Origin: Candidatus Woesebacteria bacterium GW2011_GWC1_42_9
GTDB lineage: Bacteria > Patescibacteriota > Microgenomatia > UBA8517
Length of the DNA stretch: 64,000 bases
Direction of reading: 5' to 3'
Assembly (NCBI GenBank): GCA_000995185.1
Contig: LCET01000004.1
Location: 2,630-66,629 of the forward strand
Shown one piece after another: positions 4,029-39,698 of this stretch. The notes below the pieces were generated by a model. The model did no database searches. It had not been told where the DNA came from and worked only from the letters and a program-made list of their open reading frames with translations. The translations under genes were made by a program, and so were the position numbers. The stretch's first letter is position 1; every line of letters starts with the position of its first letter.

Positions 4029-5519
<1,491 letters not shown>

Positions 5520-7194: not shown

Positions 7195-7208
7195 TTGTCA
7201 GGCAGTAC

Positions 7209-7490: not shown

Positions 7491-7528
7491 AAAAACTCAA
7501 ACGGACGAATGGAAAGAATAAACTAGAG

Positions 7529-7576: not shown

Positions 7577-7597
7577 CCCCGCCGCCGACAAAAAAGA

Positions 7598-8083
7598 CTA
7601 GCTAACCCGCCGAATTGCGAGCTGTTTTTTCAGTTCGCACTCGCGGGATTGCAAAACCTTCCATAAATGGCGCAACCGACCTGAGACTTCTTCGCCTGAG
7701 ATTTTTTGAGGAACTGAAAATTCATTGCCGGCGCAAGTTTTGATTACATCGACGACAATGGTCACCTTTCCGTCCCCTCCTCCGTTTTGGTTCTTGACCA
7801 TAACGGGTTCAGGTTGCCGAAAAAATTGATACAGAAGAACCAAGTTATCGTTGTAAGGAGATGACGCCTTCACCCAATAATGATTGGTTGGCAGATCGCC
7901 ATCAACGGTTGGAATTCCCATACCAAGTTTCCTCTCATTCTCCAGTATTCGAAATACAGATGTCCTGGCCCTTTCAAAGAACCAGTTAATCTCGTCGCGT
8001 CTGTTTGTAAACTTCGGTACTCCGTTGCTCTCATCCTCCGGCCTATTAAAGACGGGGTCTGGATTCTTGCCATCTTGAGACAT
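7598..8083 (-). CDS. Hypothetical protein (161 aa)
   Basis: ORF with GGAGGAAAAATG RBS. Confidence 0.55.
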   Translation of the reverse strand: MSQDGKNPDPVFNRPEDESNGVPKFTNRRDEINWFFERARTSVFRILENERKLGMGIPTVDGDLPTNHYWVKASSPYNDNLVLLYQFFRQPEPVMVKNQNGGGDGKVTIVVDVIKTCAGNEFSVPQKISGEEVSGRLRHLWKVLQSRECELKKQLAIRRVS

Positions 8084-8212
8084 TTTTCCTCCAGTGAGGA
8101 TTTTAAAATATACAGCGTGAGTCGGCGGCTGTTAAAGAACTGATGAAATATACATTAACTATGGGTTAGCTGTCAAGAAATATAGTGGACTCATCCAACT
8201 TAAACCATTATT

Positions 8213-8878
8213 ATGGTACTCATGGACTTTGGATTTGATCTCGCCGAACTAATCAAAACTGTAGGCTATTTCGGGATATTTTTCATAACCTTTGCCGAGT
8301 CTGGCTTGTTTTTTGGCTTCTTTTTCCCCGGCGACTCGCTTTTGTTTACCGCGGGGTTTCTGGCTTCGCAGGGATTTTTAGACATAAGGATATTGGCAGT
8401 ACTTACTGTCATTGGTGCGATCGGCGGAGACTCCGTCGGCTACTTTACAGGCAATAAATTTGGAAGATGGCTCATGCGGCAAAAAGAATCGTTTTTCTTC
8501 AAAAAAGAATATATCGAGAGAGCGCAAGTTTTCTACAACAAGCACGGAGGGAAAACTTTGATCATCGCTCGTTTTATCCCGGCCGTGCGGACATTTGTCC
8601 CTATTGTCGCCGGGATGGCCGATATGGAATATCGGAGATTTATTAGCTTTAATGTCATTGGAGGGCTTCTTTGGGGAGCTGGGATGCCCTTAGCAGGCTA
8701 CTGGCTGGGATCAAAAATCCCAGGGGTCGATAAATACTTACTTCCAATAGTTGCCGTGATTATTTTTATCTCGATTCTGCCGGGGATAATTCATATGAGG
8801 CACGATATCAAAAAAGTAATCACCCACGACAAAGTTTTAGGCCGGCTGTATAAACTAAAAAAGTTTTGGCTAGGCTAA
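8213..8878 (+). CDS. DedA/TVP38 family membrane protein
   Basis: FFGFFFPGDSLLFTAGFLAS... and conserved GG..R motif typical of DedA. Confidence 0.75.
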   Translation: MVLMDFGFDLAELIKTVGYFGIFFITFAESGLFFGFFFPGDSLLFTAGFLASQGFLDIRILAVLTVIGAIGGDSVGYFTGNKFGRWLMRQKESFFFKKEYIERAQVFYNKHGGKTLIIARFIPAVRTFVPIVAGMADMEYRRFISFNVIGGLLWGAGMPLAGYWLGSKIPGVDKYLLPIVAVIIFISILPGIIHMRHDIKKVITHDKVLGRLYKLKKFWLG

Positions 8879-8911
8879 CCTGCTATAATACCAAGCTTAG
8901 TCTTAGTATAT

Positions 8912-8987
8912 GGCCCCATCGTCTAGTGGCCTAGGACGGCGGGTTTTCATCCCGCAAACTCGGGTTCGATTCCCGATGGGGTCACCA
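8912..8987 (+). tRNA. tRNA-Glu (anticodon UUC), CCA encoded
   Basis: GGCCCCATCGTCTAGTGGCCTAGGACGGCGGGTTTTCATCCCGCAAACTCGGGTTCGATTCCCGATGGGGTCACCA; TGCTATAAT -10 at 8881-8889. Confidence 0.85.
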
Positions 8988-9021
8988 AAAGGGAAATCTC
9001 GTTGGATAAAACCAGTGTTTT

Positions 9022-10908
9022 ATGTGTGGAATATCAGGCAAAGTATACTTTGACAGGAACCAAGTCACTCCCCGACAACTGCAATTAATGGCTCTAAAGC
9101 TTTCTGATCGCGGCCCAGATGGTAAGGGTTATTTTATATCAAAAAATAAACAAGTAGGCTTTGCCCACAATCGTCTTTCCATTATCGATCTGACAATCAA
9201 AGGACGCCAACCTATGGTTTACAAAGAGCGGTATGTTATTACCTTCAACGGCGAAATCTATAACTTCAAAGAAGAAAAAGCAAAACTCATTAAAAAAGGA
9301 TACACTTTTCAATCAAACACTGACACAGAAGTCGTCGTCGCCCTCTACTCAGAATACGGCAAGGCTCTCCTTGATCATCTCAGGGGCATGTTCGCTTTTG
9401 CCATCTATGACATAAAAGAGGAACAACTACTGCTTGCAAGAGATAGGATAGGTAAAAAACCACTCAAGTACTATTTAGATCAAAATACTCTTATTTTTGC
9501 ATCCGAACTTAAAGCTATTCTCACCCAGCGGGAAGTAAAGCGAGCTATCGATTACAAAGCAATTCAACTTTATTTAACCTATGGATATATCCCTGCGCCC
9601 CAAACCGGATTCCAAAAAATAAGAAAGCTCGAGCCTGGAAGTTATCTTTTATTCAACTTAAAAACCAAAAAAATAGAGCATCGCCGATATTGGCAACCAA
9701 CGTTCGACCAGAAACTTCAGCTCTCCGAAAGAGAATGGTGCAATAAAATACTTCAAACCTTAAGTGAAGCAACAAAGATGAGAATGTATGCCGATGTCCC
9801 ACTTGGAGCTTTTCTCTCAGGTGGCATAGACTCCAGTAGTATTGTGGCTCTAATGTCCACTTTCTCAAAAAAGCCAGTTAAAACTTTTACCATTACTTTT
9901 GAAGACAAGGATCTAAACGAAGGGCCTTTTGCCCTAAATATCGCAAGAAAATATCATACTGACCATCATGAATTGCTTGCCAAACCCCAATCAGTAGAGA
10001 TACTCCCTTCTTTGGCACATCAATACGAGGAGCCATTCGCAGACTCCAGCACTGTGGTGACTTGGATGATCTCACAGCTGGCGAGAAAACACATTAAAGT
10101 TGTTTTAACTGGAGATGGAGGAGATGAAAATTTTGCCGGTTACCCCAATAGATACCTACGCCTCAAAAGGGATGTTGATTATAATCGCTGGATACAATAT
10201 ATCAGGCCGTTTACGGTTGAGATTCTTAAAGGTTACTGCCAAATAACTGACAATCTGCAGGCAGTAAGGATAAAAAAATTCCTCGAAAAGTCGAGACTGC
10301 CAATCTACGAACGTTTCGCGTCATATAACCAGATATTTAAACCAGAAGAAATTCTCCTTAATGCTTCAGGAGAATTATCTCAAGTAAACAAAAAATATGA
10401 CCCTCATCATATAGTTGAGTCCTGTTTTAATTTGTTTGAGGGCAAAGACTTAAAGGACGCAGGGCTTAAATTTGATCTGTTGTTCTTTCTACCAGACGAT
10501 CTTCTTGTCAAAATGGATATTGCCACAATGGCCATGGGGCTTGAAGCCCGGTCCCCATTCCTCGATCAAGAATTAGTCGAACTTGCCTGCAAAATCCCTT
10601 TTAATCTCAAAGTTAGAAATGGAGAAACAAAATATATTCTAAAAAAGGCCCTACTAGATATTATTCCCAGAGAAAATCTTTACCGACCCAAGGTTGGTTT
10701 TACTATCCCCTTAGGAAAATGGTTTAAACAGGAACTACACCAATATGCCAGCCATCTCCTTCTCACCAAGGGATCCAAAACCAGACATATTTTAAAATAC
10801 AGCTATGTTAAACAAATGGTAGAAAGTAATAATCAAAAGCAGGATTTTGGACCGAGGCTTTGGGCACTAATGTTTCTTGAGCTTTGGATAAGAGAATATT
10901 TTGGCTAA
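9022..10908 (+). CDS. asnB: Asparagine synthetase (glutamine-hydrolysing)
   Basis: N-terminal MCGI (Cys2 Ntn amidotransferase), PP-loop SGGIDSS. Confidence 0.85.
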   Translation: MCGISGKVYFDRNQVTPRQLQLMALKLSDRGPDGKGYFISKNKQVGFAHNRLSIIDLTIKGRQPMVYKERYVITFNGEIYNFKEEKAKLIKKGYTFQSNTDTEVVVALYSEYGKALLDHLRGMFAFAIYDIKEEQLLLARDRIGKKPLKYYLDQNTLIFASELKAILTQREVKRAIDYKAIQLYLTYGYIPAPQTGFQKIRKLEPGSYLLFNLKTKKIEHRRYWQPTFDQKLQLSEREWCNKILQTLSEATKMRMYADVPLGAFLSGGIDSSSIVALMSTFSKKPVKTFTITFEDKDLNEGPFALNIARKYHTDHHELLAKPQSVEILPSLAHQYEEPFADSSTVVTWMISQLARKHIKVVLTGDGGDENFAGYPNRYLRLKRDVDYNRWIQYIRPFTVEILKGYCQITDNLQAVRIKKFLEKSRLPIYERFASYNQIFKPEEILLNASGELSQVNKKYDPHHIVESCFNLFEGKDLKDAGLKFDLLFFLPDDLLVKMDIATMAMGLEARSPFLDQELVELACKIPFNLKVRNGETKYILKKALLDIIPRENLYRPKVGFTIPLGKWFKQELHQYASHLLLTKGSKTRHILKYSYVKQMVESNNQKQDFGPRLWALMFLELWIREYFG

Positions 10909-11795
10909 ACCAATAACCTTCCATAATTAGTGATCTCGATGTCGTGTTCTTCAATAAATTTTTTTAGGCGCGGACTTCGGAGAGCTTTAAATTCAACCCG
11001 CCGTGAAGATTTATTTGTGTAATATTCAAAAAATGGACTGGTATATTTAACTTCTTTTGCAGGGAGGGCGGGGTGAGAAACAATGTCAATAAGAGAATAA
11101 TTCTTTTCTGAAGCGTGCCTCAAAATCCCAAGGATTACTTCCTCGCTCATGTTGTCCGTATGCAAGACCCCAAAGCATGCCTCGCTTTTTTTGAGATAAT
11201 ATTTTCGAAATAGCGGAGTGCACTTTCGGGCGCAAAATTTGAGAATCCCAAACTTAATAATATTTTTATTCAGTAAAGGTCTCGTGTCATTTTTTAAGCC
11301 GCTCGTAAGATAATAATCTTCTTCAGAAAAACGAATATATCGAAGGTGGTATTTTTTAGTTAAGCGCGCAACGATTGCAAAAATGGGCGGGATCATATGA
11401 ATATGATCATGGCCATTAACATGGTCAATTGGTAGCCGCTCCTTTTTTGCAACTTCAAATTGGTGAGAAAGGTCGCGCTCTATGGCTTGAAGAAGAGACT
11501 TAGAATGGAAAACATATAACTCTTGAAAATAATGCTGGAAACGTCTTTTATACAAGCCTTGTTCGTCGGCAAGCTCGCTTGTGACGGTTGGCCCATCCGT
11601 CAAATTTAAATGAAGTCCAAGGCCAATTTTTTTAAAGGACTTCGTCCGAAAAGTGCGAAGGGCATGTTTATGGTCCACACCATTTACAGTGAGAGAAGCA
11701 CTCGAAGTGATTCCAAAATTAACACACTTCGCAATTGCATTTGTAAAGGCAAGATTATGACCAAAATCGTCATTATGAACGATGACTTTCATCAA
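10905..11795 (-). CDS. YdjC/ChbG/HpnK-family carbohydrate deacetylase
   Basis: MKVIVHNDDFGHN..., GLGLHLNLTDGP motifs of YdjC family. Confidence 0.7.
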   Translation of the reverse strand: MMKVIVHNDDFGHNLAFTNAIAKCVNFGITSSASLTVNGVDHKHALRTFRTKSFKKIGLGLHLNLTDGPTVTSELADEQGLYKRRFQHYFQELYVFHSKSLLQAIERDLSHQFEVAKKERLPIDHVNGHDHIHMIPPIFAIVARLTKKYHLRYIRFSEEDYYLTSGLKNDTRPLLNKNIIKFGILKFCARKCTPLFRKYYLKKSEACFGVLHTDNMSEEVILGILRHASEKNYSLIDIVSHPALPAKEVKYTSPFFEYYTNKSSRRVEFKALRSPRLKKFIEEHDIEITNYGRLLV

Positions 11796-12744
11796 TATTT
11801 AGGGTTTCTTTAACGATGTAACTGGGCCTCTTTTTAACCTCACTAAAAATAACGCCAAGATATTCACCGAGGATACTCATATAAATAATAATAAAGCCAT
11901 TGAGAATGATGCTCAAAAACGCCAGGGTTTTGTAGCCTTCAATAATTGGCCGATTTGCTCTGAGGGCCAGCAAAAGATCAAAAAAGAAGACTATCATCGT
12001 GACAATGATAACAACCGAGCCAACAACAAACGCCAAACGAAGCGGTTTCAAACTAAAAGAAACAAATCCCTCAACAAACATGTTGACAAAAGCGCTTAGG
12101 GAATAAGAAGAATTGCCGAAACGCCTTTTGTTTACACGATAAGATATTTCGGTAATATTTTTACCGGCCAAGGAGACCATCCCTCGAAGGAAAAATTTGG
12201 TCTCGTGGGAAGATTTAAGATAAGTAACCACTTCACTTGAGATGAGCCGGAAGTCAGAAACAGCAGGTCTAATGAGTCCGCCAGTTATTTTTTGCCAAAG
12301 AAAATAGCCAATTTTGCGCCCCTGGCGAGTAGCAAAGTCAACACTTTTATCCTCAGCCTTACAGGCGTTCACTACATCAAAACCTTTTTGCCAAAGAGCC
12401 ACAAATTTAGGAATAAGAGTAGGTGGGTGCTGAAAATCGGCATCCATAGTGATAATGGCTACGCCCTTGGCACACAGTAAACCGGCGCGAAGAGCGGCCT
12501 GGTGACCGGACCTTTTATACAAAAAGACTCCTTTAATTTTCTTACTTCGGCGACAAAGATTTGTAATCTCAGAGCGAGTCTTATCTTTACTGCCATCATC
12601 CACACAAATAATTTCGTAGTTAAAACCAGATGGGATATTTTTGATAATCTCGGGGACTAAAAGCTTTATATTTTCTGCCTCATTGTGACAAGGCAACACA
12701 ACACTCAATAACTTTCTCATAAAAATGCTCACCAATGATATCAT
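11773..12744 (-). CDS. GT2 polyprenyl-phosphate sugar transferase (DPM1/ArnC/GtrB-like) with C-terminal TM helices
   Basis: LSVVLPCHNEAENI...VDDGSKDKT...ITMDADFQHPP; two C-terminal hydrophobic helices. Confidence 0.8.
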   Translation of the reverse strand: MISLVSIFMRKLLSVVLPCHNEAENIKLLVPEIIKNIPSGFNYEIICVDDGSKDKTRSEITNLCRRSKKIKGVFLYKRSGHQAALRAGLLCAKGVAIITMDADFQHPPTLIPKFVALWQKGFDVVNACKAEDKSVDFATRQGRKIGYFLWQKITGGLIRPAVSDFRLISSEVVTYLKSSHETKFFLRGMVSLAGKNITEISYRVNKRRFGNSSYSLSAFVNMFVEGFVSFSLKPLRLAFVVGSVVIIVTMIVFFFDLLLALRANRPIIEGYKTLAFLSIILNGFIIIYMSILGEYLGVIFSEVKKRPSYIVKETLNIDESHRS

Positions 12745-12750
12745 TAGAAA

Positions 12751-13824
12751 ATGGAAAAGCGAATCTATATATTTTCCAGGGTTATCTTCTTGTTCTTTGC
12801 GATTATAGCCAGTATTTGGCTCCCTTTAAGAGAGGGGTACATTAACGAAATCTCATCCTGGGCAAATTTTGACGGGCGTCACTACATCACAATTGCCACA
12901 CAGGGCTATGATCGCTTTAATTTTGTCTTTTTTCCCCTATATCCAGGTCTCATATATTTACTTCATAAAATTTTCTCGCTAAATCCAGTTATCGCGGGAT
13001 TATTAATTAGCTATCTGTCTTTTTATGCCGCGCTTGTAGTTTTCAAAAAATTAGGAGAACTGGATTTCAAAAAATCTGAAGTTAAGTGGTCAATGATTTT
13101 CCTAGCTCTTGCACCAACAGCTTATTATTTTCAAGCAGTTTACACTGAGTCGCTGTTTTTACTATTAATCCTTCTTACTTTCTGGTTTGCACGAAAGAAA
13201 AGTTGGTTAATGGTGGGAGTTTTTGGCTTTTTAGTTTGTTTAACCAGGCATAGCGGGATTGCCTTAATTCCGGCTTTAATTGCCGAGTGGTTTTATCAGA
13301 GAAAAGATTCACAAGAGAAAAGAGACTACAAAATAATCCCAGCCATTGGACTAACCATTCTTGGAACACTTTCATTTATGGCATACACCAAAGTTTTCTT
13401 TGGAGACTTTTTCCTTTTTAAGAAATCATTCGCGGCTTGGGAGCGAGACGAAATTATTTTTCCCCTCCAAACAGTCTATCGATATCTTAAAATATTTATC
13501 TTCGTTAATCCGAGACTTTTAGTTTATTGGATTGCCGTTCTTGAATTTATAAGTTTCCTTGCGGCCATAATATTAGGGCTTTACACGACCTTAAAAATTC
13601 GAGTTTCGTATGGAATCCTCATCCTTACGCTTCTAGCCATGGGGTCATTAAGTGGTACATTAATTGGAACTCCAAGATATCTACTACACATGTTCCCAAT
13701 TTATTGGGCAATAACAAATATGACGGCCACTCGAAATAATTTAAGATACTTATACTTAGGCATTTCAATCGCGCTGGGATTTATTTTGACGAGCCTTTTT
13801 GTGAGAGGATACTTTGTATCCTAA
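12751..13824 (+). CDS. Polytopic membrane protein, putative GT-C-type glycosyltransferase (by architecture and context)
   Basis: ~10 predicted TM helices; divergent partner of GT2/YdjC genes. Confidence 0.4.
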   Translation: MEKRIYIFSRVIFLFFAIIASIWLPLREGYINEISSWANFDGRHYITIATQGYDRFNFVFFPLYPGLIYLLHKIFSLNPVIAGLLISYLSFYAALVVFKKLGELDFKKSEVKWSMIFLALAPTAYYFQAVYTESLFLLLILLTFWFARKKSWLMVGVFGFLVCLTRHSGIALIPALIAEWFYQRKDSQEKRDYKIIPAIGLTILGTLSFMAYTKVFFGDFFLFKKSFAAWERDEIIFPLQTVYRYLKIFIFVNPRLLVYWIAVLEFISFLAAIILGLYTTLKIRVSYGILILTLLAMGSLSGTLIGTPRYLLHMFPIYWAITNMTATRNNLRYLYLGISIALGFILTSLFVRGYFVS

Positions 13825-32738: not shown

Positions 32739-32807
32739 TGCGGGGTAGTGTAGGGTGCACGGGAGGCTCATAATCTCCCAGACTAGGTCCGACTCCTAGC
32801 CCCGCAA
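32739..32807 (+). tRNA. tRNA-like gene with CAU anticodon, noncanonical T-loop (TCCGACT) and short D-loop; identity uncertain (initiator/Met/Ile2) or pseudo-tRNA
   Basis: TGCGGGGTAGTGTAGGGTGCACGGGAGGCTCATAATCTCCCAGACTAGGTCCGACTCCTAGCCCCGCAA folds into cloverleaf with 7-bp acceptor (U1:A72). Confidence 0.4.
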
Positions 32808-32812
32808 CATAT

Positions 32813-32885
32813 GGCAGGGTAGCTCAGTAGGTAGAGCACAGGATTCATAAACCTGCGGTCGTGGGTTCGATTCCCACCCCTGCTA
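32813..32885 (+). tRNA. tRNA-Met (anticodon CAU)
   Basis: GGCAGGGTAGCTCAGTAGGTAGAGCACAGGATTCATAAACCTGCGGTCGTGGGTTCGATTCCCACCCCTGCTA. Confidence 0.7.
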
Positions 32886-33263
32886 CTAAAATAACTTGAG
32901 CCACTTTTGCCAATTCTGAAGAGGAATTTCGTTTTCTAATTCACGCTCAATCCTCGGAGATAGCTTTCGAAGTGTTTCACTGTCGGGCAGGACAACGACA
33001 ATTTCCCCCTCCTTCGCGAGACCCAACTTATCGCGCGCTTGCTTTTCGATATAATCCTCGCTTCTCACAAACTTAATTTGGTCGGCCAAATCCCGATTTT
33101 TTTTATCTAATTCTTCCAAAGCAGAATAAGCATCATCAATCGCCCGATTTATCCGATATAATCGCATGACATTTCGAGCCAGCGAAAGCGATAAAACAAG
33201 TAATATTGCCGCCACAAGATACCGAATTAACCTATGTTTTGGCAATTTATCTTTGATACCCAT
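32886..33263 (-). CDS. FtsB/DivIC-like septum formation initiator
   Basis: N-terminal TM, coiled coil, EDYIEKQARDKLGLAKEGE. Confidence 0.6.
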   Translation of the reverse strand: MGIKDKLPKHRLIRYLVAAILLVLSLSLARNVMRLYRINRAIDDAYSALEELDKKNRDLADQIKFVRSEDYIEKQARDKLGLAKEGEIVVVLPDSETLRKLSPRIERELENEIPLQNWQKWLKLF

Positions 33264-33301
33264 AATGTTGACGTCTATAAATCCTGTGATATCATATAGT
33301 T

Positions 33302-34165
33302 ATGTCGAATGAACCACTTAAGACTTTATTGCCTAAGTTTATCAAAAATTTAGAGGAGGCAGGAAGATCACCTTCAACCATCCTCGCCTACCGCTCCGAT
33401 TTGGTGCAATTGATTGACTACCTGGAAAAATTCAGCAAGGTAACCACTGATCAAGTCAAATCGCAAGATCTCGAGGGCTTCCGTGACTATTTACTAAGTC
33501 AGAAATATACCCCAAAGTCTGTATCTAGAAAACTAAATGCTATTAAGACCTTTTTTAGATGGTTGGTAACCAATAGTCTTATAGTCAAGGATGTTTCGCG
33601 TGATGTAGAACATCCTAGAATAGAGGCAACTTTGCCAAAGTTTTTGACCCAACTTGAATATCGCGCTTTAAGGGACGCAGTCCGAGCTGATCAGCGCATT
33701 GCCACGATTGTAGAATTAATCTTACAAACCGGCATGAGGATCTCAGAAATTGCGAATCTCAAAGCAAAAAATGTTCTTCAAAAGGAAATTATCATCGAAG
33801 CTTTCGCCACCCAGCCAGAAAGAAAAATCCACCTTAACGCAACTGCCAAAAAATCAGTCGATGACTATCTGAAAATCCGTCCGGAAACAGGGGAAGAATT
33901 TTTGTTTGTCAGCAAAAACGGGAAGCAACTGGCAGTAAGAAATATCAGGGCAGCGATAGACCGCCATATGCAAAGAGCCGGAGTTCCAAATTACTCTGTA
34001 AATGATCTTCGAACTACTTTTATAGTTGAGAACTTGAAACGAGGAGTGGATTTGGTAGTTATCTCAAAAATGGCCGGCCACAAGCGCCTCTCAACGACAG
34101 AGCGCTACCTTCAGTTGGCCGAAATCTCCGAGCACGGCGGCAAACAGTTAATAGAAGAACTGTAA
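33302..34165 (+). CDS. Tyrosine recombinase (XerC/XerD-like phage-integrase family)
   Basis: Core-binding AYRSDLVQLIDYL; catalytic R (GMRISE), LR box, AGHKRLSTTERY (H..Y). Confidence 0.8.
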   Translation: MSNEPLKTLLPKFIKNLEEAGRSPSTILAYRSDLVQLIDYLEKFSKVTTDQVKSQDLEGFRDYLLSQKYTPKSVSRKLNAIKTFFRWLVTNSLIVKDVSRDVEHPRIEATLPKFLTQLEYRALRDAVRADQRIATIVELILQTGMRISEIANLKAKNVLQKEIIIEAFATQPERKIHLNATAKKSVDDYLKIRPETGEEFLFVSKNGKQLAVRNIRAAIDRHMQRAGVPNYSVNDLRTTFIVENLKRGVDLVVISKMAGHKRLSTTERYLQLAEISEHGGKQLIEEL

Positions 34166-34171
34166 CTCTAG

Positions 34172-34244
34172 TGGGCCGGGAAGGATTCGAACCTTCGACT
34201 TCCAACTTATAAGATTGGCACTCTAACCGCTGAGTTACCGGCCC
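34172..34244 (-). tRNA. tRNA with anticodon UAU (tRNA-Ile(UAU)-like)
   Basis: RC: GGGCCGGTAACTCAGCGGTTAGAGTGCCAATCTTATAAGTTGGAAGTCGAAGGTTCGAATCCTTCCCGGCCCA; anticodon stem CCAAT/GTTGG, loop CTTATAA. Confidence 0.6.
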
Positions 34245-34321
34245 AAGATAATCCCTATTATACCAATATTACTTCTTTTCTTGTGGTGGAGATCCTTTTC
34301 TTTCATTCTGGGGCAATCCTA

Positions 34322-36637
34322 CTATAGCTTCGCGCGTCTGGCAATTTCAGATTCCACGAGCCGTAGGTCCCGCCCATATCGCAGCCTACTCATCTCCCGG
34401 ATGATCCCGGCAATTTTTGGATTTGATCCAGAAATAATCTTTTCAAGATCCATTGTAAGATCAACTGAAAAAGGAGGAACTGGCTCATTGTTCACAATTG
34501 TCTTCATATAAACATGGAAGCGCTCAATATTTAATAAATCATCCTCTTCAAAGCTTGGAACAAACTCGTGGGCTAGATAATTGGCATCCGATACTCCTAC
34601 GCGGTATGAAATCAGTGTCCCCACATTCCCAAAAATCGCATTTTTAATATCTTCATCAATCTGCCCTACAAACTGATTTGCCACTGTCAAGTTTAAGCGG
34701 TATTTCCTTGCTTCAGAGAGAATCTGAGCAAAATCGGGAGTGGCAAAATTTTGAAACTCATCAACGTAAAGATAAAAATCCCGGCGTTTTTCTTCAGGTA
34801 TATCGGACCTGCTCATCGCCGCCATTAAAATTCTTGGGACAAGTATTAATCCCAAGAAATTGGAATTCTCTTCTCCTAGTTCCCCTTTTGCAAGATTTAC
34901 TAAAAGTATTTTCCCTTGATCCATAATTTCCCGAAAATCAAACGACGATTTAGATTGACCGATAATATTTCTGACCATCTTATTGGTAACGAACCTCCCA
35001 AATTTACTGGTGATATAGTCCAAGGTTTCTGATTTGTGGAACTCAGACGTCTGGGCAATTTGATCAGTCCAATAACGCCTGACAATGGGGTCCTGAACTT
35101 TGGGGAGTATTTCACGGACATACTCGGGATCAGTCAAAATCCTCATTACCTCTATAAACGTACTTCCCTCTTCGCTCATGGCCGTAAGCATCGCATTCCT
35201 CACGGCATGCTCAAATCTCGGACCAACTATTCCAGTCTTGTAAGGATCAAAAAGCTTGTACATTAAATTAATAATCGATGTCGTCACGAAGTGCTTTTGG
35301 TCCTCGGTCTGTGCTTCTAAAAGATTTAATCCCATCGGCCTCTCGCTATCACCCGGCCTAAAGTAAATCACATCTTCGCTTCTCTCAGAAGGAATGTAAT
35401 TTAAAATATCCTCAACTGCATCTCCATGAGGATCTATAAAGCACACTCCCCGCCCAGCATTTATATCCTGCCTGATCATGGATTTTAAAAATTCAGTCTT
35501 CCCGGTGCCAGTTTTCCCAATAATATACATATGGCGCTGGCGGTCGCTCTCCGCCATAAATACCGGCCTTCTTACCCCGCGAAAACTACTCACCCCAACA
35601 TAGAGTCCTTCAGTTGGTATTTGTGCGGGCGCTGGCGCACGCTTGGCATGAATCCAATCAATATGGGGAGTGGTAATCGCCTTGTTTGGAAAATGAAAAA
35701 TAGAAGCTAATTCCTCGGAATTTAAAATTGATCGCCGGTTACTACCTAAATGCATTGCAGGCTGATAACGGTAAATAAAATCTTCGACAAAACTTGCTTT
35801 TCTTCTAACTTTTCTCGTGCCAAGCTGATTATGTTCCCCATTAAATTGGGACATTGTTCCCAATATATTTGAAAGGTGCGCTTTAGCCGATTCGCTGTTT
35901 CCCGAAACAACAACAACCCGAATGGAAGTTTCAAATCCAGGCTTTGAAGATTTATTCTCAATCGCTTCAAGGGTTTTTGCGCTTGTTGAAAATTTGGCAC
36001 TTTCAGGGTCAGCTTCCTGTTTTTTGGTGCTGCTGACAAATCCCTTGCCTGCTTTTTGCCACTTACCTTCTGCCGGGGAAATTAATATTTGGACCGCGGC
36101 CGCCTCCCCTTTCCCCATCTTTGCCATGGCACTAGTAAGGGAAGATAGGGGATCAGTGGGCAAATCTTTATAAGTAGTCAGGGGGTAATGATTTTCTTTC
36201 TTTAGTTGTAGGGCGGAGTACGCCACAGACCCCTCCTCTCCAAAAATTTCATACTCCGGGACTTCAAGAATCTCGGCATCTTGATATGCTCCATGGATCT
36301 GCTTTTCGATCATGTCCCGATATTCATTAAATGTCCAGACATAAAACTTTATATCCTCCAGCCTGGCAACAATCTCAAAAGAAATCACCGGCTGAGTGGA
36401 GAAACGCATCTTAAACCCGCCTTTTTTAATGGAATAGAGGGAGGCAATAATCTGCTCCATCGCATCGATCTTCACTTCATTGCTCCGAGATACCTTTACC
36501 AAAAGAAGTGAAGAATTAAGTGACCTTCCTTCTCTGTCATGCAGACGAATTTGACTGATGATATACCAAGCGATTCCAGCTGCAAATATCACGAGAGCTC
36601 CAGTAACGATTAGGGCAATAAACAGTGTCGTTAGCAT
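34322..36637 (-). CDS. Type IV coupling-protein-like ATPase (VirD4/TraG/TraD family), paralog 2, N-terminal TM helix
   Basis: IIGKTGTGKTEF, DPHGD, EEKRRDFYLYVDEFQNFATPDF, ILSEARKYRLNL (blocks identical to paralog 1). Confidence 0.75.
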   Translation of the reverse strand: MLTTLFIALIVTGALVIFAAGIAWYIISQIRLHDREGRSLNSSLLLVKVSRSNEVKIDAMEQIIASLYSIKKGGFKMRFSTQPVISFEIVARLEDIKFYVWTFNEYRDMIEKQIHGAYQDAEILEVPEYEIFGEEGSVAYSALQLKKENHYPLTTYKDLPTDPLSSLTSAMAKMGKGEAAAVQILISPAEGKWQKAGKGFVSSTKKQEADPESAKFSTSAKTLEAIENKSSKPGFETSIRVVVVSGNSESAKAHLSNILGTMSQFNGEHNQLGTRKVRRKASFVEDFIYRYQPAMHLGSNRRSILNSEELASIFHFPNKAITTPHIDWIHAKRAPAPAQIPTEGLYVGVSSFRGVRRPVFMAESDRQRHMYIIGKTGTGKTEFLKSMIRQDINAGRGVCFIDPHGDAVEDILNYIPSERSEDVIYFRPGDSERPMGLNLLEAQTEDQKHFVTTSIINLMYKLFDPYKTGIVGPRFEHAVRNAMLTAMSEEGSTFIEVMRILTDPEYVREILPKVQDPIVRRYWTDQIAQTSEFHKSETLDYITSKFGRFVTNKMVRNIIGQSKSSFDFREIMDQGKILLVNLAKGELGEENSNFLGLILVPRILMAAMSRSDIPEEKRRDFYLYVDEFQNFATPDFAQILSEARKYRLNLTVANQFVGQIDEDIKNAIFGNVGTLISYRVGVSDANYLAHEFVPSFEEDDLLNIERFHVYMKTIVNNEPVPPFSVDLTMDLEKIISGSNPKIAGIIREMSRLRYGRDLRLVESEIARRAKL

Positions 36638-36976
36638 TTACTTTTTAAAAATTACATGAATTCCATCCAGAACCGCCTGTTTAACTCTCCTCAGCCAAAA
36701 CACTCCAAACCAAGTACTAGCTTCATCAACATTACCCTTTGATAACTCTTCCAGCTCACTTTGATTGTCAGCCGGGATATTTGTTACCGCCGGTTTTGGC
36801 GGCATAGGTGCTTGAACTTCTTTTATCGTCCCCCCGATAATTGGTGCAGGCTGGCTACTACTACTCTTCGCTGAAGCAACGCCGACAGATGCTTCTTGGG
36901 ATGGTGTTACCTCCAATTTTGGCCCGCCTTGTTCAGGCGGAGTTTGAACCTCCGGAAATCTCTCTGGCGTGGTCAT
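36638..36976 (-). CDS. Hypothetical P/S-rich small protein, translationally adjacent to the coupling-protein gene
   Basis: Stop abuts ATG of 34322-36637 gene. Confidence 0.45.
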   Translation of the reverse strand: MTTPERFPEVQTPPEQGGPKLEVTPSQEASVGVASAKSSSSQPAPIIGGTIKEVQAPMPPKPAVTNIPADNQSELEELSKGNVDEASTWFGVFWLRRVKQAVLDGIHVIFKK

Positions 36977-36987: not shown

Positions 36988-37509
36988 TCATTTCCAAATC
37001 TCCTCGGTCACACCGGCTCGGAAATTGGACTCGCGGGCGAGGGTAAACAATAAATCTGAAATTCTATTTAGATATTTTAAAATTCCCGTGCTCACCTTTT
37101 CCCTTTGCGAAAGAGCAACCACCTGACGCTCCGCACGCCTGGAAAGCGAACGGCAGTATTGCAAATGAACGGAAAACTTGGTCCCGCTTGCCAGAATAAA
37201 ATTAGATAATTTTAGAAGAATTTTATCTAGCTCATCAATTTTCTTTTCTAATCTTTTAGCCTTTTCGGTGCCAAACCTAGCCTTATTCCCTGCCAAAATA
37301 GAATTTAGCAAAAATAAATCCCGCTGAAGTGAACTTATAAATTCTTTCGTCTGAGAATTTTCAGAATAGGAAGCCGTCACTCCTAAATAGCTATTTAATT
37401 CATCAACCGCTCCTATGGCGCGGATCTTTACGGAATCCTTTCTAATCCGGTCCTTCGAAGCCAAAGTTCCCGTAGTTCCAGAGTCGCCTTTTTTGGTATA
37501 TATACCCAT
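36988..37509 (-). CDS. ATP:cob(I)alamin adenosyltransferase, PduO-type
   Basis: MGIYTKKGDSGTTG...RAIGAVDELNSYLG. Confidence 0.75.
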   Translation of the reverse strand: MGIYTKKGDSGTTGTLASKDRIRKDSVKIRAIGAVDELNSYLGVTASYSENSQTKEFISSLQRDLFLLNSILAGNKARFGTEKAKRLEKKIDELDKILLKLSNFILASGTKFSVHLQYCRSLSRRAERQVVALSQREKVSTGILKYLNRISDLLFTLARESNFRAGVTEEIWK

Positions 37510-37699
37510 TTCTTTGTTGGTATTCTACCAATATTTTCTATAATCAACAATTTCCCCCCCTCACGGCATCACGGCACCACCTCCCTCCACACAATCTTGT
37601 TTGGAGAGAGGGAGGAAGGGAAATGAAGATAATTGGCAGGATTCATCGTGAATGTTTCCGCAGGATTTGCATTCCCTCCGCCGAGATTGCGGGAGAGGG

Positions 37700-38194
37700 T
37701 TACCCCTGAGAGGGTAACCACTGATCCCAGGGTGGTGAGTGGTTGGTAAACCCCCCATCTGCAAAGAAGATCCCCTGCAAAGAGGTGACTGTTGGGTCAA
37801 CGATGATGTCCCCGCTCACTACAATCAAAAGAAAATCGTTGGCTGTACTGGCCAGAGTGACATTCCCGGTGATTGTGAGGTTCCCCTCCACAAAAAGGAC
37901 CACTTTCCCATTGATGGTGGCATTTGTGAGGGTGAGGTCTCCTGGAGAGGCGAACCATTTGTAGCCGTCAGGAGAAAGAGATCCTCCAGAGAATCCCCCT
38001 GTCCCCATTGTCCCGCTAGCCGCATTGGTGACTGCATCAGAGGGGATCTTTCCCTCAAAGATGGCGTAGTCCAGAGACTCATTCCCGGAGAAAGCGAGAG
38101 GGGCGTCTACTTTCCAAGGGGTATCCCCTCCTCCAAGCCCAAGGTTCCCTGAATACAGGGCAATGGCGGTGGATGAATTGGCATTTGAGGCCAC
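37700..38194 (-). CDS. Beta-helix-like repeat protein (probable C-terminal part of a secreted adhesin-like protein)
   Basis: NLTITGNVTLASTANDFLLIVVSGDIIVDP repeats; start overlaps stop of upstream ORF (TGATG); GC-rich. Confidence 0.45.
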   Translation of the reverse strand: MASNANSSTAIALYSGNLGLGGGDTPWKVDAPLAFSGNESLDYAIFEGKIPSDAVTNAASGTMGTGGFSGGSLSPDGYKWFASPGDLTLTNATINGKVVLFVEGNLTITGNVTLASTANDFLLIVVSGDIIVDPTVTSLQGIFFADGGFTNHSPPWDQWLPSQG

Positions 38195-38652
38195 TAAGTA
38201 GCTGTGCCTCTGACTCTGGCAGTTCCGGGAGTGAGGCCAGTGACATTGGTGGTGTATGAAGGGAGAGTGCTGTCCCTGGTGGGGTTAATGGAAATGCTTC
38301 CGGTGAGTCCCCCGATTGGGGCATTAACGGCAGTGAAATCAACCCACTGGACAGTCCCATTGGCTACCCCCTGCACGGTGGCGGCGACCACCCCCACTGG
38401 CCCACCCACCGAGACAGTGACATCATTCAAGGTGACACCAGTGCAGGAAGCGGCAGGAGCACAGCCTGGACAGCTGGCGTCATTACTGGCACTGCAATCT
38501 GTGTAGCAAACGGTCACATTGTCCACATTACTGCGGCAATACCCGGTTCTTCTCCTGCAAGCTGCACAAGGGAAAGTCGTTGCTTCTGCCATCGGCTCCA
38601 CACAGAGCTGGAGAAGGTGTAGGTGTGGGGGTTGGGGTGGGAGCTGCCGCAC
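38194..38652 (-). CDS. Cys-rich segment, likely frameshifted continuation of 38528-38998 ORF
   Basis: Overlaps 38528-38998 by 125 nt in another frame. Confidence 0.35.
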   Translation of the reverse strand: MRQLPPQPPHLHLLQLCVEPMAEATTFPCAACRRRTGYCRSNVDNVTVCYTDCSASNDASCPGCAPAASCTGVTLNDVTVSVGGPVGVVAATVQGVANGTVQWVDFTAVNAPIGGLTGSISINPTRDSTLPSYTTNVTGLTPGTARVRGTAT

Positions 38653-38998
38653 AAAAGCCTCCGGAGGGCGATCCGGTCCCTAAAGTACAACCAATTTGAT
38701 CCCCTTGACCATCTGTAACAGGGCTACAAGCTGTATTTAGCCAAGCACTCCATGTGCACTGGCCAAAATTCCAATAACAAGATGCATTATGAGTACTTGG
38801 GGTACCTGGACTACAAGATGCGATGTTCTTACGTTTAATCGGGTTATAAGTGTAATTACAGGTATATTGTGTATAGAAATATGTAGTTGAGCCGCAATAG
38901 GCTTGAGCCTTGACAGTTTTATAAGAGGAGAAAAAGGCTGCGGAAGCAAGCAGTAGGGCTCCTGAAATAAGAATGAATTTGGATAATTTCATTATCAT
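38528..38998 (-). CDS. Secreted Cys-rich protein with (TP)n linker (N-terminal part)
   Basis: Signal peptide MIMKLSKFILISGALLLASAAFF; 12 Cys; APTPTPTPTPSP. Confidence 0.5.
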   Translation of the reverse strand: MIMKLSKFILISGALLLASAAFFSSYKTVKAQAYCGSTTYFYTQYTCNYTYNPIKRKNIASCSPGTPSTHNASCYWNFGQCTWSAWLNTACSPVTDGQGDQIGCTLGTGSPSGGFCAAAPTPTPTPTPSPALCGADGRSNDFPLCSLQEKNRVLPQ

Positions 38999-39585
38999 GG
39001 CACTGGGATTGCAATGCTTGTGACCGGACTTACAGTTATCTTTTGGGTTGTTTGAGCTTCACTAATTAGGGATTTAGCAGTAGATTCGTCCATATCGACA
39101 AAGATAATTACTTGGGTGCCGGGCTTTGTGTATTTGGCTATTTCCTCAAAACTCTCAATCCTCCACTCCTGGGTGGGACCGAACTGCCCCCCCCTTAATT
39201 TGAGTGTAAGGAGAGTGCCCGTGGCGGGTTCGTCATTTATTTTCCCTTCTACGGTTGCATTTTGATTATTTTCCATCGGAACAGAGAGAGTGATATTTCC
39301 TCCGGAAGCCAGAGAATCATCAACAACAACTCCGGAGATAACAAGCTTCATTACCGGGTCCCACTCCATTCCCATTTTGTATGCCGCTGGCGTAGAGCTC
39401 TTTAGCGCGGGATTTGGTGCTTGATAAATGGGGACTTTTGCTTTTTGAGACGTATCTATGGCCGTTGAGGCAGGAGTGCTATTTGAGCCGGCCGGCGTAC
39501 CCTGAAAAGTAAAGTACTGGTAAAGTAGAAATCCGGCGGCACCAAGAGTAAGAATAAAAACAATTGCAAGCAGGACTTTCTTCAC
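38995..39585 (-). CDS. Secreted/membrane-anchored hypothetical protein
   Basis: MKKVLLAIVFILTLGAAGFLL... signal/TM. Confidence 0.5.
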   Translation of the reverse strand: MKKVLLAIVFILTLGAAGFLLYQYFTFQGTPAGSNSTPASTAIDTSQKAKVPIYQAPNPALKSSTPAAYKMGMEWDPVMKLVISGVVVDDSLASGGNITLSVPMENNQNATVEGKINDEPATGTLLTLKLRGGQFGPTQEWRIESFEEIAKYTKPGTQVIIFVDMDESTAKSLISEAQTTQKITVSPVTSIAIPVP

Positions 39586-39669: not shown

Positions 39670-39698
39670 TTTGTGACATAGCTAGTCTATTTCACAAA
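39670..39698 (+). promoter_or_regulatory. Inverted repeat TTTGTGA-N15-TCACAAA (candidate operator) upstream of 39728 gene
   Basis: 7-bp perfect arms. Confidence 0.35.

What the first reader, a model, noticed from the sequence alone, without database searches (positions are those of the whole stretch)
33302..36976. Recombinase - tRNA - coupling protein block: integrative-element remnant or chromosomal Xer?
The Xer-like tyrosine recombinase gene ends 7 nt from the 3' end of the UAU tRNA. Immediately beyond is coupling-protein paralog 2 with a co-transcribed small protein. Integrase next to a tRNA 3' end next to conjugation machinery is the classic ICE/IME layout. The recombinase could alternatively be the single chromosomal XerC/D of a small genome.
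Basis: inference. Interest (0 to 1): 0.55.

Follow-up and report, generated by a model that had tools for sequence, protein, structure and literature searches.

The report
Conserved chromosomal Xer-like block, not ICE
The recombinase, tRNA and "coupling protein" genes are not the remains of a mobile element: the same gene order is inherited in at least 20 related Woesebacteria genomes, so the layout is ordinary, although the Xer-like recombinase has an unusual active site.

Summary
A 287-aa tyrosine recombinase gene (33302-34165, +) stops 5 nt before the 3' end of tRNA-Ile(UAU) (34171-34244, -). Next come a 771-aa VirD4-like ATPase (34322-36637, -) and an abutting 112-aa ORF.

The ICE/IME reading fails every test I could run:
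- The tRNA 3' half is not repeated anywhere in the 64 kb.
- No relaxase, VirB4 or other transfer gene lies within about 30 kb either side.
- GC content does not shift.
- The order tRNA-Met x2, DivIC, recombinase, tRNA-Ile(UAU), ATPase, small ORF recurs in 20 other Woesebacteria genomes and in a Curtissbacteria contig.
- Recombinase and ATPase co-diverge with FtsH (Mantel r about 0.8).

The window comes from Ca. Woesebacteria GW2011_GWB1_43_14. Published work already reports about two chromosomal, relaxase-less T4CP homologues per Patescibacteria genome.

The recombinase is best read as the lineage's Xer-type protein, with XerC, XerA and XerD as closest families. It falls below every curated Xer threshold. 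I found no dif site. Its clade lacks the beta-hairpin lysine and has Asn in place of the first catalytic His.

The main finding is of low interest. The active-site variant is a modest lead.

The parts
32739..32886 (+). Two tandem tRNA-Met(CAU) genes (32739-32808 and 32813-32886). They are the upstream anchor of the conserved block.
   Evidence: ARAGORN and Rfam. The pair is found next to divIC and xer in Woesebacteria, Curtissbacteria and Pacebacteria, and next to xer in WWE3.
32886..33263 (-). divIC/ftsB-type septum-formation gene (125 aa), transcribed divergently from the recombinase gene.
   Evidence: Pfam DivIC, E 1.6e-18. The divIC and xer pair sits head-to-head in all Woesebacteria loci and in the Curtissbacteria and Pacebacteria loci.
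33268..33295 (+). Promoter-like site for the recombinase gene (TTGACG, 16 nt, TATCAT, with a TG extension).
   Evidence: Consensus scan. The same ATAAT-R-TTGAC ... TGnTAT(C/T)AT layout is seen by eye upstream of xer in most of the 21 related loci. Function is inferred.
33302..34165 (+). Xer-like 'simple' tyrosine recombinase, 287 aa, with a non-canonical catalytic set: R146, no hairpin Lys, N234, R237, H260, Y269.
   Evidence: Pfam. NCBIfam best hits are XerC, XerA and XerD at about 150 bits, below their cut-offs. PDB sequence hits are XerA and XerD. The AF2 model has pLDDT 92 and its best Foldseek hits are XerA. Catalytic alignment.
34171..34244 (-). tRNA-Ile with anticodon UAU. Its 3' end faces the recombinase stop codon.
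   Evidence: ARAGORN and Rfam at 73 bits. It occupies the same slot in 21 Woesebacteria loci and in Curtissbacteria, on the opposite strand in L016, L025 and L166.
34256..34264 (-). Extended -10-like element (TGGTATAAT on the minus strand) 11 nt upstream of the tRNA-Ile 5' end. Probably the tRNA promoter.
   Evidence: Read directly from the sequence. Function is inferred.
34322..36637 (-). VirD4/VirB4-superfamily ATPase, 771 aa ('T4CP paralogue 2'). It has an N-terminal TM helix, a DUF8128 domain and a P-loop ATPase with an all-alpha insert.
   Evidence: Pfam and precomputed DUF8128. NCBIfam hits to TraD and VirD4 families all fall far below their cut-offs. AF2 model pLDDT 80. Foldseek hits: TrwK/VirB4 over the full length, then HerA, then TrwB. 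More than 7,800 homologues, the top 120 at 70-76% identity. phrog_5156 at 333 bits.
36638..36976 (-). 112-aa ORF abutting the ATPase start codon. It has a Pro/Ser-rich N-terminus and a conserved C-terminal stretch of about 40 aa. No family match.
   Evidence: ORF list. No Pfam, NCBIfam or PHROG hit. A tblastn match or a called ORF of similar size lies just upstream of the ATPase gene in most relatives examined.
36988..37509 (-). PduO-type cob(I)alamin adenosyltransferase gene, 11 nt upstream of the small ORF. Probably the first gene of the same minus-strand operon.
   Evidence: Pfam Cob_adeno_trans, E 4.7e-46. The position is conserved in Woesebacteria, where it often follows class II RNR and NrdR genes.

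Best explanation
This is an ordinary, vertically inherited stretch of a Woesebacteria (Patescibacteria/CPR) chromosome, not an integrative element.

- The recombinase is the lineage's conserved Xer-type 'simple' tyrosine recombinase. It is expressed from its own promoter, head-to-head with the division gene divIC. Its most likely job (inferred, not shown) is site-specific resolution of chromosome dimers at an unidentified dif-like site at cell division.
- The tRNA-Ile(UAU) is a housekeeping tRNA that happens to sit in the convergent gap.
- The 'coupling protein' belongs to the chromosomal VirD4-like ATPase family with a DUF8128 domain. Patescibacteria carry about two copies per genome without relaxases. 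Here it is co-transcribed with a small partner ORF and probably a cobalamin adenosyltransferase gene. Its substrate is unknown.
- The three genes are neighbours because of conserved gene order. They are convergently transcribed, and nothing indicates that they work together.
For: Shown:
- Organism and contig identity.
- Order FtsH, tRNA_bind, TrpRS, tRNA-Met x2, DivIC, Xer, tRNA-Ile(UAU), ATPase, small ORF, CobAT in 20 other Woesebacteria genomes. The core of this order recurs in Curtissbacteria, and the DivIC-Xer pair recurs in Pacebacteria.
- Xer is 53-69% identical and the ATPase 68-77% identical across these genomes, compared with 66-73% for FtsH.
- Pairwise distances co-vary: Xer with FtsH r=0.78, Xer with ATPase r=0.81, p=0.0005.
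- 116 of the 120 closest Xer homologues are 286-289 aa long.
- No second copy of the tRNA 3' half in 64 kb, and no second tyrosine recombinase in the window.
- All neighbours over 0-56 kb are housekeeping genes, with no relaxase, VirB4 or other transfer genes.
- GC is 0.41-0.45 through the block and its flanks.
- The best family and structure matches are XerC, XerA and XerD.

Literature:
- 5,713 VirD4-like T4CPs were found in 2,918 Patescibacteria genomes. Only 148 lie near virB4, and relaxases are nearly absent (PMC12102498).
- A 'Cand' subgroup of Xer-related recombinases in candidate phyla is thought to stand in for Xer (PMC8138268).
Against: - No dif-like site was found. The canonical dif consensus gives 2 matches with 2 mismatches against 4.1 expected by chance. 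No conserved non-coding 12-mer lies near xer in 24 loci.
- The protein scores about 150 bits against cut-offs of 220-335 for the XerA, XerC and XerD equivalogs.
- Its clade lacks the beta-hairpin Lys and has Asn for the first catalytic His, so catalytic competence is unproven.
- I could not scan a whole Woesebacteria genome. 'Only recombinase in the genome' and 'FtsK present' therefore remain untested.
- In some relatives the gaps around the tRNA hold variable cargo. One relative (L009) has IS, toxin-antitoxin and serine-recombinase insertions there. Another (L018) has a 24-nt duplicate of the tRNA 3' end. The site can therefore receive DNA in other genomes.
Confidence: 0.8

Rival explanations
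1. ICE/IME remnant: a tyrosine integrase that inserted an element into the 3' end of tRNA-Ile, with the coupling protein as a surviving piece of the conjugation module.
For: - The layout superficially matches integrase, tRNA 3' end, then T4CP.
- In relative L018 a 24-nt exact duplicate of the tRNA-Ile 3' end lies 172 bp away.
- L009 carries mobile-element genes around this tRNA.
The tRNA has therefore served as an insertion point in other genomes.
Against: - No repeat of the tRNA 3' half in the window.
- No relaxase or T4SS genes within about 30 kb.
- No GC anomaly.
- The block is present and syntenic in all 20 relatives and in Curtissbacteria, and it co-diverges with FtsH.
- The ATPase sits in an operon with a metabolic gene.
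- The tRNA orientation flips in L016, L025 and L166.
- The recombinase has no arm-binding domain.
- Relaxase-less chromosomal T4CPs are the norm in Patescibacteria (PMC12102498).
Confidence: 0.03
2. The recombinase is conserved but is not a conventional dimer resolvase. Its altered active site (no hairpin Lys, Asn for His-II) could mark a different role: a slow or specialised site-specific recombinase acting at another locus, or a mainly DNA-binding or regulatory protein.
For: - The R-x-N-R-H-Y signature is invariant in the 120 closest homologues and in the named Microgenomates and WWE3 relatives. Most of the closest representative clusters carry Asn at His-II and no hairpin Lys.
- In the alignment, a few representatives show Phe or Ile at the position of the nucleophile Tyr (P0134, P0140, P0143, P0161, P0166).
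- No dif site was found.
- The gene content immediately downstream of xer varies between species.
Against: - Both Arg, His-III and the Tyr nucleophile are retained under strong purifying selection, which suggests catalysis is kept.
- The two-domain Xer fold is predicted with high confidence.
- The pairing with divIC fits a division-time function.
- The variable cargo has no flanking repeats and consists of ordinary metabolic genes.
Confidence: 0.14
3. Functional module: the neighbouring membrane-anchored DUF8128 ATPase acts as the DNA translocase that positions or activates the Xer-like recombinase at the septum, as an FtsK surrogate. DivIC would tie the module to division.
For: - The DivIC, Xer, (tRNA), ATPase neighbourhood is kept in Woesebacteria and Curtissbacteria even though other neighbours change.
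- The ATPase belongs to the FtsK/HerA/VirD4 superfamily.
- It is as conserved as FtsH.
- The T4CP homologue was reported as non-essential for the T4SS-dependent epibiotic growth of a Saccharibacterium, and its exaptation to another function was suggested (PMC12102498).
Against: - The genes are convergently transcribed and are not an operon.
- The adjacency is lost in Pacebacteria and WWE3, which keep the same Xer clade.
- The FtsK_SpoIIIE match covers only the P-loop, at 18 bits and below the cut-off.
- No gamma-like winged helix was identified.
- TM7x, another CPR bacterium, has FtsK (papers listed).
- Homologues of the ATPase occur in large Bacillus phages.
Confidence: 0.05

Closest known systems
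Xer chromosome-dimer-resolution recombinases (bacterial XerC/XerD, archaeal XerA, single-recombinase XerH and XerS)
   Same: - About 290 aa with two domains (core-binding plus catalytic) and no arm-binding domain.
- The best HMM hits are the XerC, XerA and XerD models.
- The best PDB sequence and fold hits are XerA 5hxy/4a8e and XerD 1a0p.
- Inherited across the lineage at a fixed chromosomal locus.
   Different: - Scores are about half the curated cut-offs.
- The catalytic set is R-x-N-R-H-Y instead of R-K-H-R-H-Y.
- No dif site has been identified, and none is adjacent to the gene as it is in XerS/difSL.
- Whether it works alone (like XerA, XerH and XerS) or with a partner is unknown.
'Cand' subgroup of simple tyrosine recombinases (Smyshlyaev, Bateman and Barabas 2021, PMC8138268)
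   Same: Described as Xer-related recombinases from 'Candidate' phyla that may compensate for Xer function. This matches the taxonomy and the simple architecture seen here.
   Different: Membership could not be tested because the subgroup HMM is not available here. The paper's text does not mention loss of the hairpin Lys or the His-to-Asn change.
Chromosomal VirD4-like T4CP homologues of Patescibacteria (Quinonero-Coronel et al. 2025, PMC12102498)
   Same: - About two copies per genome; two are present in this window.
- Not next to virB4, and no relaxase.
- NCBI names the relatives 'type IV secretion system DNA-binding domain-containing protein'.
   Different: - This protein has an N-terminal DUF8128 domain.
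- In the predicted fold its whole length aligns best with VirB4/TrwK rather than with TrwB.
- Its strongest profile hit is a phage family of unknown function, phrog_5156.
tRNA-integrating ICEs/IMEs and genomic islands (e.g. ICEclc, PAPI-1; from general knowledge)
   Same: A tyrosine recombinase gene lies next to a tRNA 3' end, with a T4CP-like gene nearby.
   Different: - No att direct repeats, relaxase or mating-pore genes.
- No arm-binding domain on the recombinase.
- No patchy distribution among relatives.
- The genes follow host phylogeny.

Membership tests
ICE/IME integrated at a tRNA gene | Element bounded by a direct repeat of the tRNA 3' portion (attL/attR) | tested here: not met
   The 22-nt tRNA 3' half, searched with up to 3 mismatches, matches only itself and the 3' end of tRNA-Lys in 64 kb.
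ICE/IME integrated at a tRNA gene | Relaxase and/or mating-pair-formation genes (VirB4 etc.) within the element | tested here: not met
   Precomputed Pfam hits for all called genes across window 0-56 kb show only housekeeping families plus the two T4CP-like genes.
ICE/IME integrated at a tRNA gene | Patchy presence among relatives and a phylogeny decoupled from the host | tested here: not met
   Present at the same locus in 20 of 20 Woesebacteria loci long enough to judge, and in Curtissbacteria. Mantel r=0.78-0.81 against FtsH and between Xer and the ATPase.
ICE/IME integrated at a tRNA gene | Compositional deviation from the flanking sequence | tested here: not met
   GC is 0.41-0.45 from 31 to 37 kb, the same as the flanking housekeeping genes.
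Xer dimer-resolution recombinase | Simple two-domain tyrosine recombinase whose closest relatives are Xer proteins | tested here: met
   Pfam SAM-like plus Phage_integrase domains. XerC, XerA and XerD are the top NCBIfam hits. PDB hits are XerA and XerD. The AF2 model's best Foldseek hits are XerA.
Xer dimer-resolution recombinase | Reaches the curated equivalog score for XerC, XerD, XerA or XerS | tested here: not met
   154.7 bits against a cut-off of 335 (XerC), 153.4 against 220 (XerA), 150 against 330 (XerD), 68.8 against 267 (XerS).
Xer dimer-resolution recombinase | Canonical catalytic residues R-K-H-R-H plus the Tyr nucleophile | tested here: not met
   R146, H260, R237 and Y269 are present. 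The hairpin reads YATQPER in place of GKGNKER, so no Lys aligns with XerD K172. N234 replaces H244. This holds in all 120 closest homologues and across the named Microgenomates and WWE3 relatives.
Xer dimer-resolution recombinase | Inherited across the lineage at one chromosomal locus | tested here: met
   Single copy per genome was checked only within the 64-kb window.
Xer dimer-resolution recombinase | Cognate dif site (28-31 bp imperfect palindrome) near the terminus or next to the gene | tested here: inconclusive
   No canonical dif in the window. The palindrome scan gave only terminator-like hits and one operator-like site at 39670. No conserved non-coding element lies near xer in 24 loci. 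The terminus region was not available.
Xer dimer-resolution recombinase | Only Xer-type recombinase in the genome, and FtsK-type activator present | not testable with these tools
   Whole Woesebacteria genomes (for example CP055307.1 and CP066693.1) could not be scanned.
Type IV coupling protein (VirD4/TrwB/TraD) | TrwB-type P-loop NTPase domain with Walker A and B motifs | tested here: met
   TrwB_AAD_bind 29.5 bits (cut-off 20.5) and TraG-D_C 23.6 bits (cut-off 22). GKTGTGKT and VDEFQ motifs are invariant. Foldseek against TrwB gives TM-score (target-normalised) of about 0.6 over roughly 430 columns.
Type IV coupling protein (VirD4/TrwB/TraD) | Reaches a curated conjugative T4CP family score | tested here: not met
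   SXT_TraD 56 bits against 366, CD1115 VirD4-like 46 against 250, TOL TraD 37.5 against 648.
Type IV coupling protein (VirD4/TrwB/TraD) | Genetic linkage to a relaxase or T4SS channel genes | tested here: not met
   None in the window. This agrees with what PMC12102498 reports for Patescibacteria in general.
Patescibacterial chromosomal T4CP/DUF8128 ATPase family | DUF8128 N-domain plus T4CP-like ATPase, conserved across CPR genomes with a paralogue | tested here: met
   PF26449 is recorded for this gene and all its orthologues. More than 7,800 homologues exist. The paralogue at 1103-3361 is 35% identical.
'Cand' subgroup of simple tyrosine recombinases | Match to the subgroup HMM of Smyshlyaev et al. 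2021 | not testable with these tools
   The HMM is not available. Only the taxonomic and architectural description fits.

The most novel reading that the evidence does not exclude
The Microgenomates/WWE3 Xer clade is a mechanistically distinct tyrosine recombinase. It would resolve chromosomes without the 'universal' beta-hairpin lysine and with Asn in place of the first catalytic histidine. In Woesebacteria and Curtissbacteria its conserved neighbour, the membrane-anchored DUF8128 VirD4/VirB4-like ATPase, would serve as its septal DNA translocase and activator in place of FtsK.
Probability: 0.06. Interest if true: 0.65.

Novelty: new member of a known kind. Interest (0 to 1): 0.2.

Why it matters
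For genome annotation, this is a warning. In CPR/Patescibacteria the trio of integrase, tRNA and T4CP is not diagnostic of an ICE. VirD4-like ATPases there are chromosomal core genes, and the Xer-like recombinase sits in a conserved housekeeping neighbourhood. Automated mobile-element callers that key on these markers would produce false positives across thousands of CPR genomes.

The one point of wider interest is the active site. The conserved Xer-type protein of a very large bacterial radiation lacks two residues regarded as part of the invariant catalytic pentad. If the protein is active, that bears on how tyrosine recombinases protonate the leaving group. If it is not, it raises the question of how these tiny genomes resolve chromosome dimers.

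Tried and rejected
1. Repeat of the tRNA 3' half. A local search with 3 mismatches found nothing relevant. Exact 22-mer scans of the viral and metagenome collections returned mostly unrelated tRNA-Tyr genes, so they say nothing about att sites.

2. dif search.
- The generic XerCD dif consensus gave fewer hits than chance.
- An 11-nt-arm palindrome scan gave terminators and one operator-like site at 39670-39698, which lies at a divergent rather than convergent gene switch.
- A 12-mer conservation scan across 24 loci found only tRNAs and coding motifs.
- Inspection of the sequences upstream of xer showed a conserved promoter, not a dif site.

3. Origin or terminus inference. The GC-skew and gene-orientation switch near 40-49 kb looks origin-like, but no dnaA is present. 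I did not pursue it.

4. Second, canonical Xer in Woesebacteria. I searched with P0144, the nearest canonical RKHRHY representative. The only named close relative is a Thermoflexales bacterium, and the named CPR hits were again the Asn-type clade. This does not settle whether a second Xer exists.

5. Flanking direct repeats around the variable cargo in relatives. None were convincing, apart from the tRNA-end duplicate in L018. The cargo is ordinary metabolic genes.

6. Literature on FtsK or dimer resolution in Microgenomates. Nothing specific was found.

Full report
**Observation**

The window comes from Candidatus Woesebacteria bacterium GW2011_GWB1_43_14. The recombinase is 100% identical to the protein annotated 'Tyrosine recombinase XerC' on contig LCFQ01000002.1.

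- A 287-aa tyrosine recombinase ORF at 33302-34165 (+), with a Phage_integrase catalytic domain and an N-terminal SAM-like core-binding domain.
- tRNA-Ile(UAU) at 34171-34244 (-).
- A 771-aa ATPase at 34322-36637 (-). It passes Pfam's cut-offs for TrwB_AAD_bind, DUF87 and TraG-D_C. It is 35% identical to a paralogue at 1103-3361.
- A 112-aa ORF at 36638-36976 (-) whose stop codon abuts the ATPase start codon.

The gap between the recombinase stop codon and the tRNA 3' end is 5 nt, or 6 by Rfam's boundary, rather than 7. A PduO-type cobalamin adenosyltransferase gene lies 11 nt upstream of the small ORF. The minus-strand unit is therefore probably cobA, small ORF, ATPase.

**Test of the ICE/IME reading**

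Each defining feature of an element integrated at a tRNA was checked, and none was met.
- *att repeats.* The 22-nt tRNA 3' half, searched with up to three mismatches, has no second copy in the 64 kb. The only other hit is the 3' end of tRNA-Lys itself.
- *Transfer genes.* Precomputed Pfam assignments for every called gene from about 0 to 56 kb show FtsH, TrpRS, a tRNA-binding protein, DivIC, Fpg, a 5'-3' exonuclease, a RecF-like SMC_N ATPase, DNA ligase, thioredoxin-system genes, NUDIX and sugar-nucleotide and glycosyltransferase genes. No relaxase, VirB4, other T4SS component or second recombinase appears.
- *Composition.* GC content is flat at 0.41-0.45 through the block and its flanks.

**Synteny**

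Twenty other Woesebacteria genomes carry the same order: FtsH, tRNA_bind, TrpRS, tRNA-Met x2, DivIC, recombinase, tRNA-Ile(UAU), ATPase, small ORF, CobAT. Three of them lie on contigs of about 0.9 Mb.
- Across these genomes the recombinase is 53-69% identical to the window protein and the ATPase 68-77%. FtsH is 66-73%.
- Pairwise distances among 15 species co-vary strongly. Recombinase against FtsH gives r=0.78, recombinase against ATPase r=0.81, and FtsH against ATPase r=0.78, all with Mantel p=0.0005.
- A Curtissbacteria contig keeps tRNA-Met x2, DivIC, recombinase, tRNA-Ile(UAU), DUF8128 ATPase and small ORF, even though CobAT is replaced by a malic-enzyme gene there.
- A Pacebacteria contig keeps tRNA-Met x2, DivIC and the recombinase, with an inverted TrpRS-FtsH segment and no ATPase.
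- WWE3 keeps FtsH, tRNA-Met x2 and the recombinase.
- The tRNA-Ile lies on the opposite strand in L016, L025 and L166. The 'integrase faces the tRNA 3' end' geometry is therefore not conserved.

These patterns are those of vertically inherited core genes, not of a mobile element or its remnant.

**The insertion-prone gap in relatives**

The gaps on either side of the tRNA vary between relatives. The recombinase-to-tRNA gap ranges from 5 bp to 5.8 kb, and the tRNA-to-ATPase gap from 17 bp to 1.4 kb.
- Most of the inserted cargo is ordinary: a P-type ATPase, a histidine kinase, UDP-glucose-dehydrogenase-like genes, an ABC1 kinase and an M48 peptidase. None has flanking repeats.
- L009 (CP066693.1) has a large serine recombinase block, an RHH/PIN toxin-antitoxin pair and an IS110-like transposase in this region.
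- L018 has an exact 24-nt duplicate of the tRNA-Ile 3' end 172 bp from the gene, which looks like a small integration scar.

The site can take up DNA in other genomes. In the window the gaps are minimal (5 nt and 77 nt) and hold nothing foreign.

**What the recombinase is**

Its best family matches are the XerC, XerA and XerD equivalog models at 150-155 bits. All are well below their curated cut-offs of 220-335 bits. The best named PDB sequence matches are XerA (5hxy, 4a8e) and XerD (1a0p). An AlphaFold model built from 32 sequences is confident (pLDDT 92). It shows the two-domain clamp without an arm-binding domain, and XerA is its best Foldseek match.

The gene has its own promoter-like site. 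The same layout, ATAAT-R-TTGAC, a spacer of about 17 nt and TGnTAT(C/T)AT, can be seen upstream of the gene in most relatives. The gene is head-to-head with divIC/ftsB in Woesebacteria, Curtissbacteria and Pacebacteria. Smyshlyaev et al. (PMC8138268) describe a 'Cand' subgroup of Xer-related simple recombinases from candidate phyla. They suggest that such class-specific groups compensate for Xer function.

I therefore read this gene as the lineage's Xer-type recombinase, most likely used for chromosome dimer resolution. That function is inferred and has not been shown.

**Caveats on the Xer assignment**

*No dif site was found.* The canonical consensus gives fewer hits than chance. The palindrome scan gives terminators. 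No non-coding element near the gene is conserved across 24 loci, so there is no gene-linked site of the XerS/difSL kind. The terminus region was not available.

*I could not count tyrosine recombinases or look for FtsK genome-wide.*

*The active site is non-canonical.* I aligned the protein to E. coli XerD, whose catalytic residues are R148, K172, H244, R247, H270 and Y279.
- The Woesebacteria proteins keep both Arg, the second His and the Tyr.
- The beta-hairpin reads YATQPER where Xer proteins have GKGxKER, so no Lys aligns with K172.
- Box II reads V-N-D-L-R, so Asn replaces His-II.
- All 120 closest homologues have N-D-[LI]-R, and 119 of 120 lack a GKGxK motif.
- In a search of 1.84 billion representative proteins, most of the closest clusters have Asn at His-II and no hairpin Lys. 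Canonical RKHRHY sequences become the rule only beyond about E=1e-32. The main exception is a small canonical group around P0144.
- The only named close relative of P0144 is a Thermoflexales bacterium. The named Pacebacteria, Curtissbacteria and Microgenomates hits in that search are again the Asn type.
- In the alignment, a few distant representatives show Phe or Ile at the Tyr position.

The paper text I could read does not mention this feature for the 'Cand' subgroup. Whether the enzyme is active, and what replaces the general-acid Lys, cannot be decided here.

**What the 'coupling protein' is**

The label is only partly earned.
- The protein has a TrwB-type P-loop domain with invariant Walker motifs.
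- It scores far below every curated conjugative T4CP family.
- Its precomputed Pfam annotation includes an N-terminal DUF8128 domain.
- The AlphaFold model (pLDDT 80) shows an N-terminal helix, an alpha/beta N-domain and an ATPase with an all-alpha insert.
- By Foldseek the whole length aligns best with TrwK/VirB4, then HerA. TrwB and Cag-beta match only the C-terminal half.
- Its strongest profile hit is phrog_5156, a phage family of unknown function, at 333 bits. Homologues at 21-25% identity over about 85% of its length occur in Bacillus phage G and in other large Bacillus phages.
- It has more than 7,800 database homologues. The top 120 are 70-76% identical and 756-793 aa long.

This matches the published picture. 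Quinonero-Coronel et al. found 5,713 VirD4-like T4CPs in 2,918 Patescibacteria genomes. Only 148 are near virB4, and relaxases are almost absent. They raise the possibility that the protein has been exapted to another function (PMC12102498).

**Is there a functional link between the recombinase and the ATPase?**

They are convergently transcribed. The adjacency is kept in Woesebacteria and Curtissbacteria but lost in Pacebacteria and WWE3. An FtsK-surrogate role for the ATPase is not excluded. It has no positive support beyond neighbourhood and superfamily membership, and I give it about 5%.

**Verdict**

The ICE/IME interpretation is rejected. The 'chromosomal Xer' interpretation is favoured but incomplete. 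Both gene families are already described in general terms for CPR bacteria, so the block is an ordinary new member of known kinds. The conserved loss of two pentad residues in the CPR Xer clade is the only feature that might repay follow-up.

Noticed in passing
window 37560-39000 (minus strand): A GC-rich (0.49) gene for a secreted or surface-type protein. It is a single 544-aa ORF in another assembly (L004). In the window it lacks 16, 160 and 29 bp, none a multiple of 3, and splits into three ORFs in three frames. About 25 substitutions cluster in roughly 190 bp beside the 160-bp gap, while the rest is identical. Eight other assemblies break inside or just before this gene. It is either a strain-variable gene or an assembly collapse.
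   Followed up: partly
window 1-5519: The rRNA operon is interrupted. The 16S gene (4030-5519, -) and the start of the 23S gene (1-204, -) are separated by T4CP-like paralogue 1 on the opposite strand (1103-3361, +), tRNA-Ile(GAU) (503-577, +) and tRNA-Ala (240-315, -).
   Followed up: no
window 34171-34244; L007-L029, L166: A tRNA-Ile with a UAU anticodon is conserved in all Woesebacteria loci and in Curtissbacteria, beside two tRNA(CAU) genes. Most bacteria read AUA with a lysidine-modified CAU tRNA, so these lineages may lack TilS.
   Followed up: no
window 33302-34165 and homologues P0001-P0387: The whole Microgenomates/WWE3 Xer-like clade has R-x-N-R-H-Y. The hairpin Lys is absent and Asn replaces the first catalytic His. 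The clade also has an invariant VRNIR motif and, in Woesebacteria, a conserved C-terminal GKKQxLEEL tail. In the alignment, a few distant representatives show Phe or Ile at the Tyr position.
   Followed up: partly
L018 7637-7660 and 7809-7832: An exact 24-nt direct repeat of the tRNA-Ile 3' end lies 172 bp from the gene, with a further degenerate copy between the two. It looks like a decayed integration scar at this tRNA in a relative.
   Followed up: partly
L009 (CP066693.1) 6700-13200: In this genome (a 916-kb single contig) the same neighbourhood has acquired a 657-aa large serine recombinase with small ORFs upstream of xer. An RHH/PIN toxin-antitoxin pair and an IS110-like transposase lie between xer and the ATPase gene.
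   Followed up: no
L022, L024, L025, L026, L029, L030, L032 (TrpRS position): The TrpRS gene at the conserved position is only 32-39% identical to the window's enzyme in these seven genomes, against 60-69% in the others. FtsH and Xer identities are similar in both groups. This suggests in-place replacement by a distant TrpRS type.
   Followed up: no
window 34322-36637; phage records H1-H15: The DUF8128 ATPase matches phage family phrog_5156 (unknown function) at 333 bits. It has homologues covering 75-86% of its length in Bacillus phage G (gp156) and other large Bacillus phages such as CampHawk, Shanette, JL and CP-51. IMG/VR contigs also hold relatives at 28-43% identity. The family is therefore not confined to conjugation systems.
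   Followed up: partly
window 39670-39698: A 29-bp near-perfect palindrome (TTTGTGACATA GCTAGTC TATTTCACAAA, 10 of 11 arm positions matching) lies in the intergenic region where gene orientation switches from minus to plus. It is more likely an operator than a dif site.
   Followed up: no
L007-L009 downstream of CobAT: In three relatives examined (L007, L008, L009) the cobalamin adenosyltransferase gene is followed by ribonucleotide reductase large-subunit genes (probably class II, B12-dependent) and nrdR, a sensible functional cluster. In the window that position is taken by the variable surface-protein gene.
   Followed up: no
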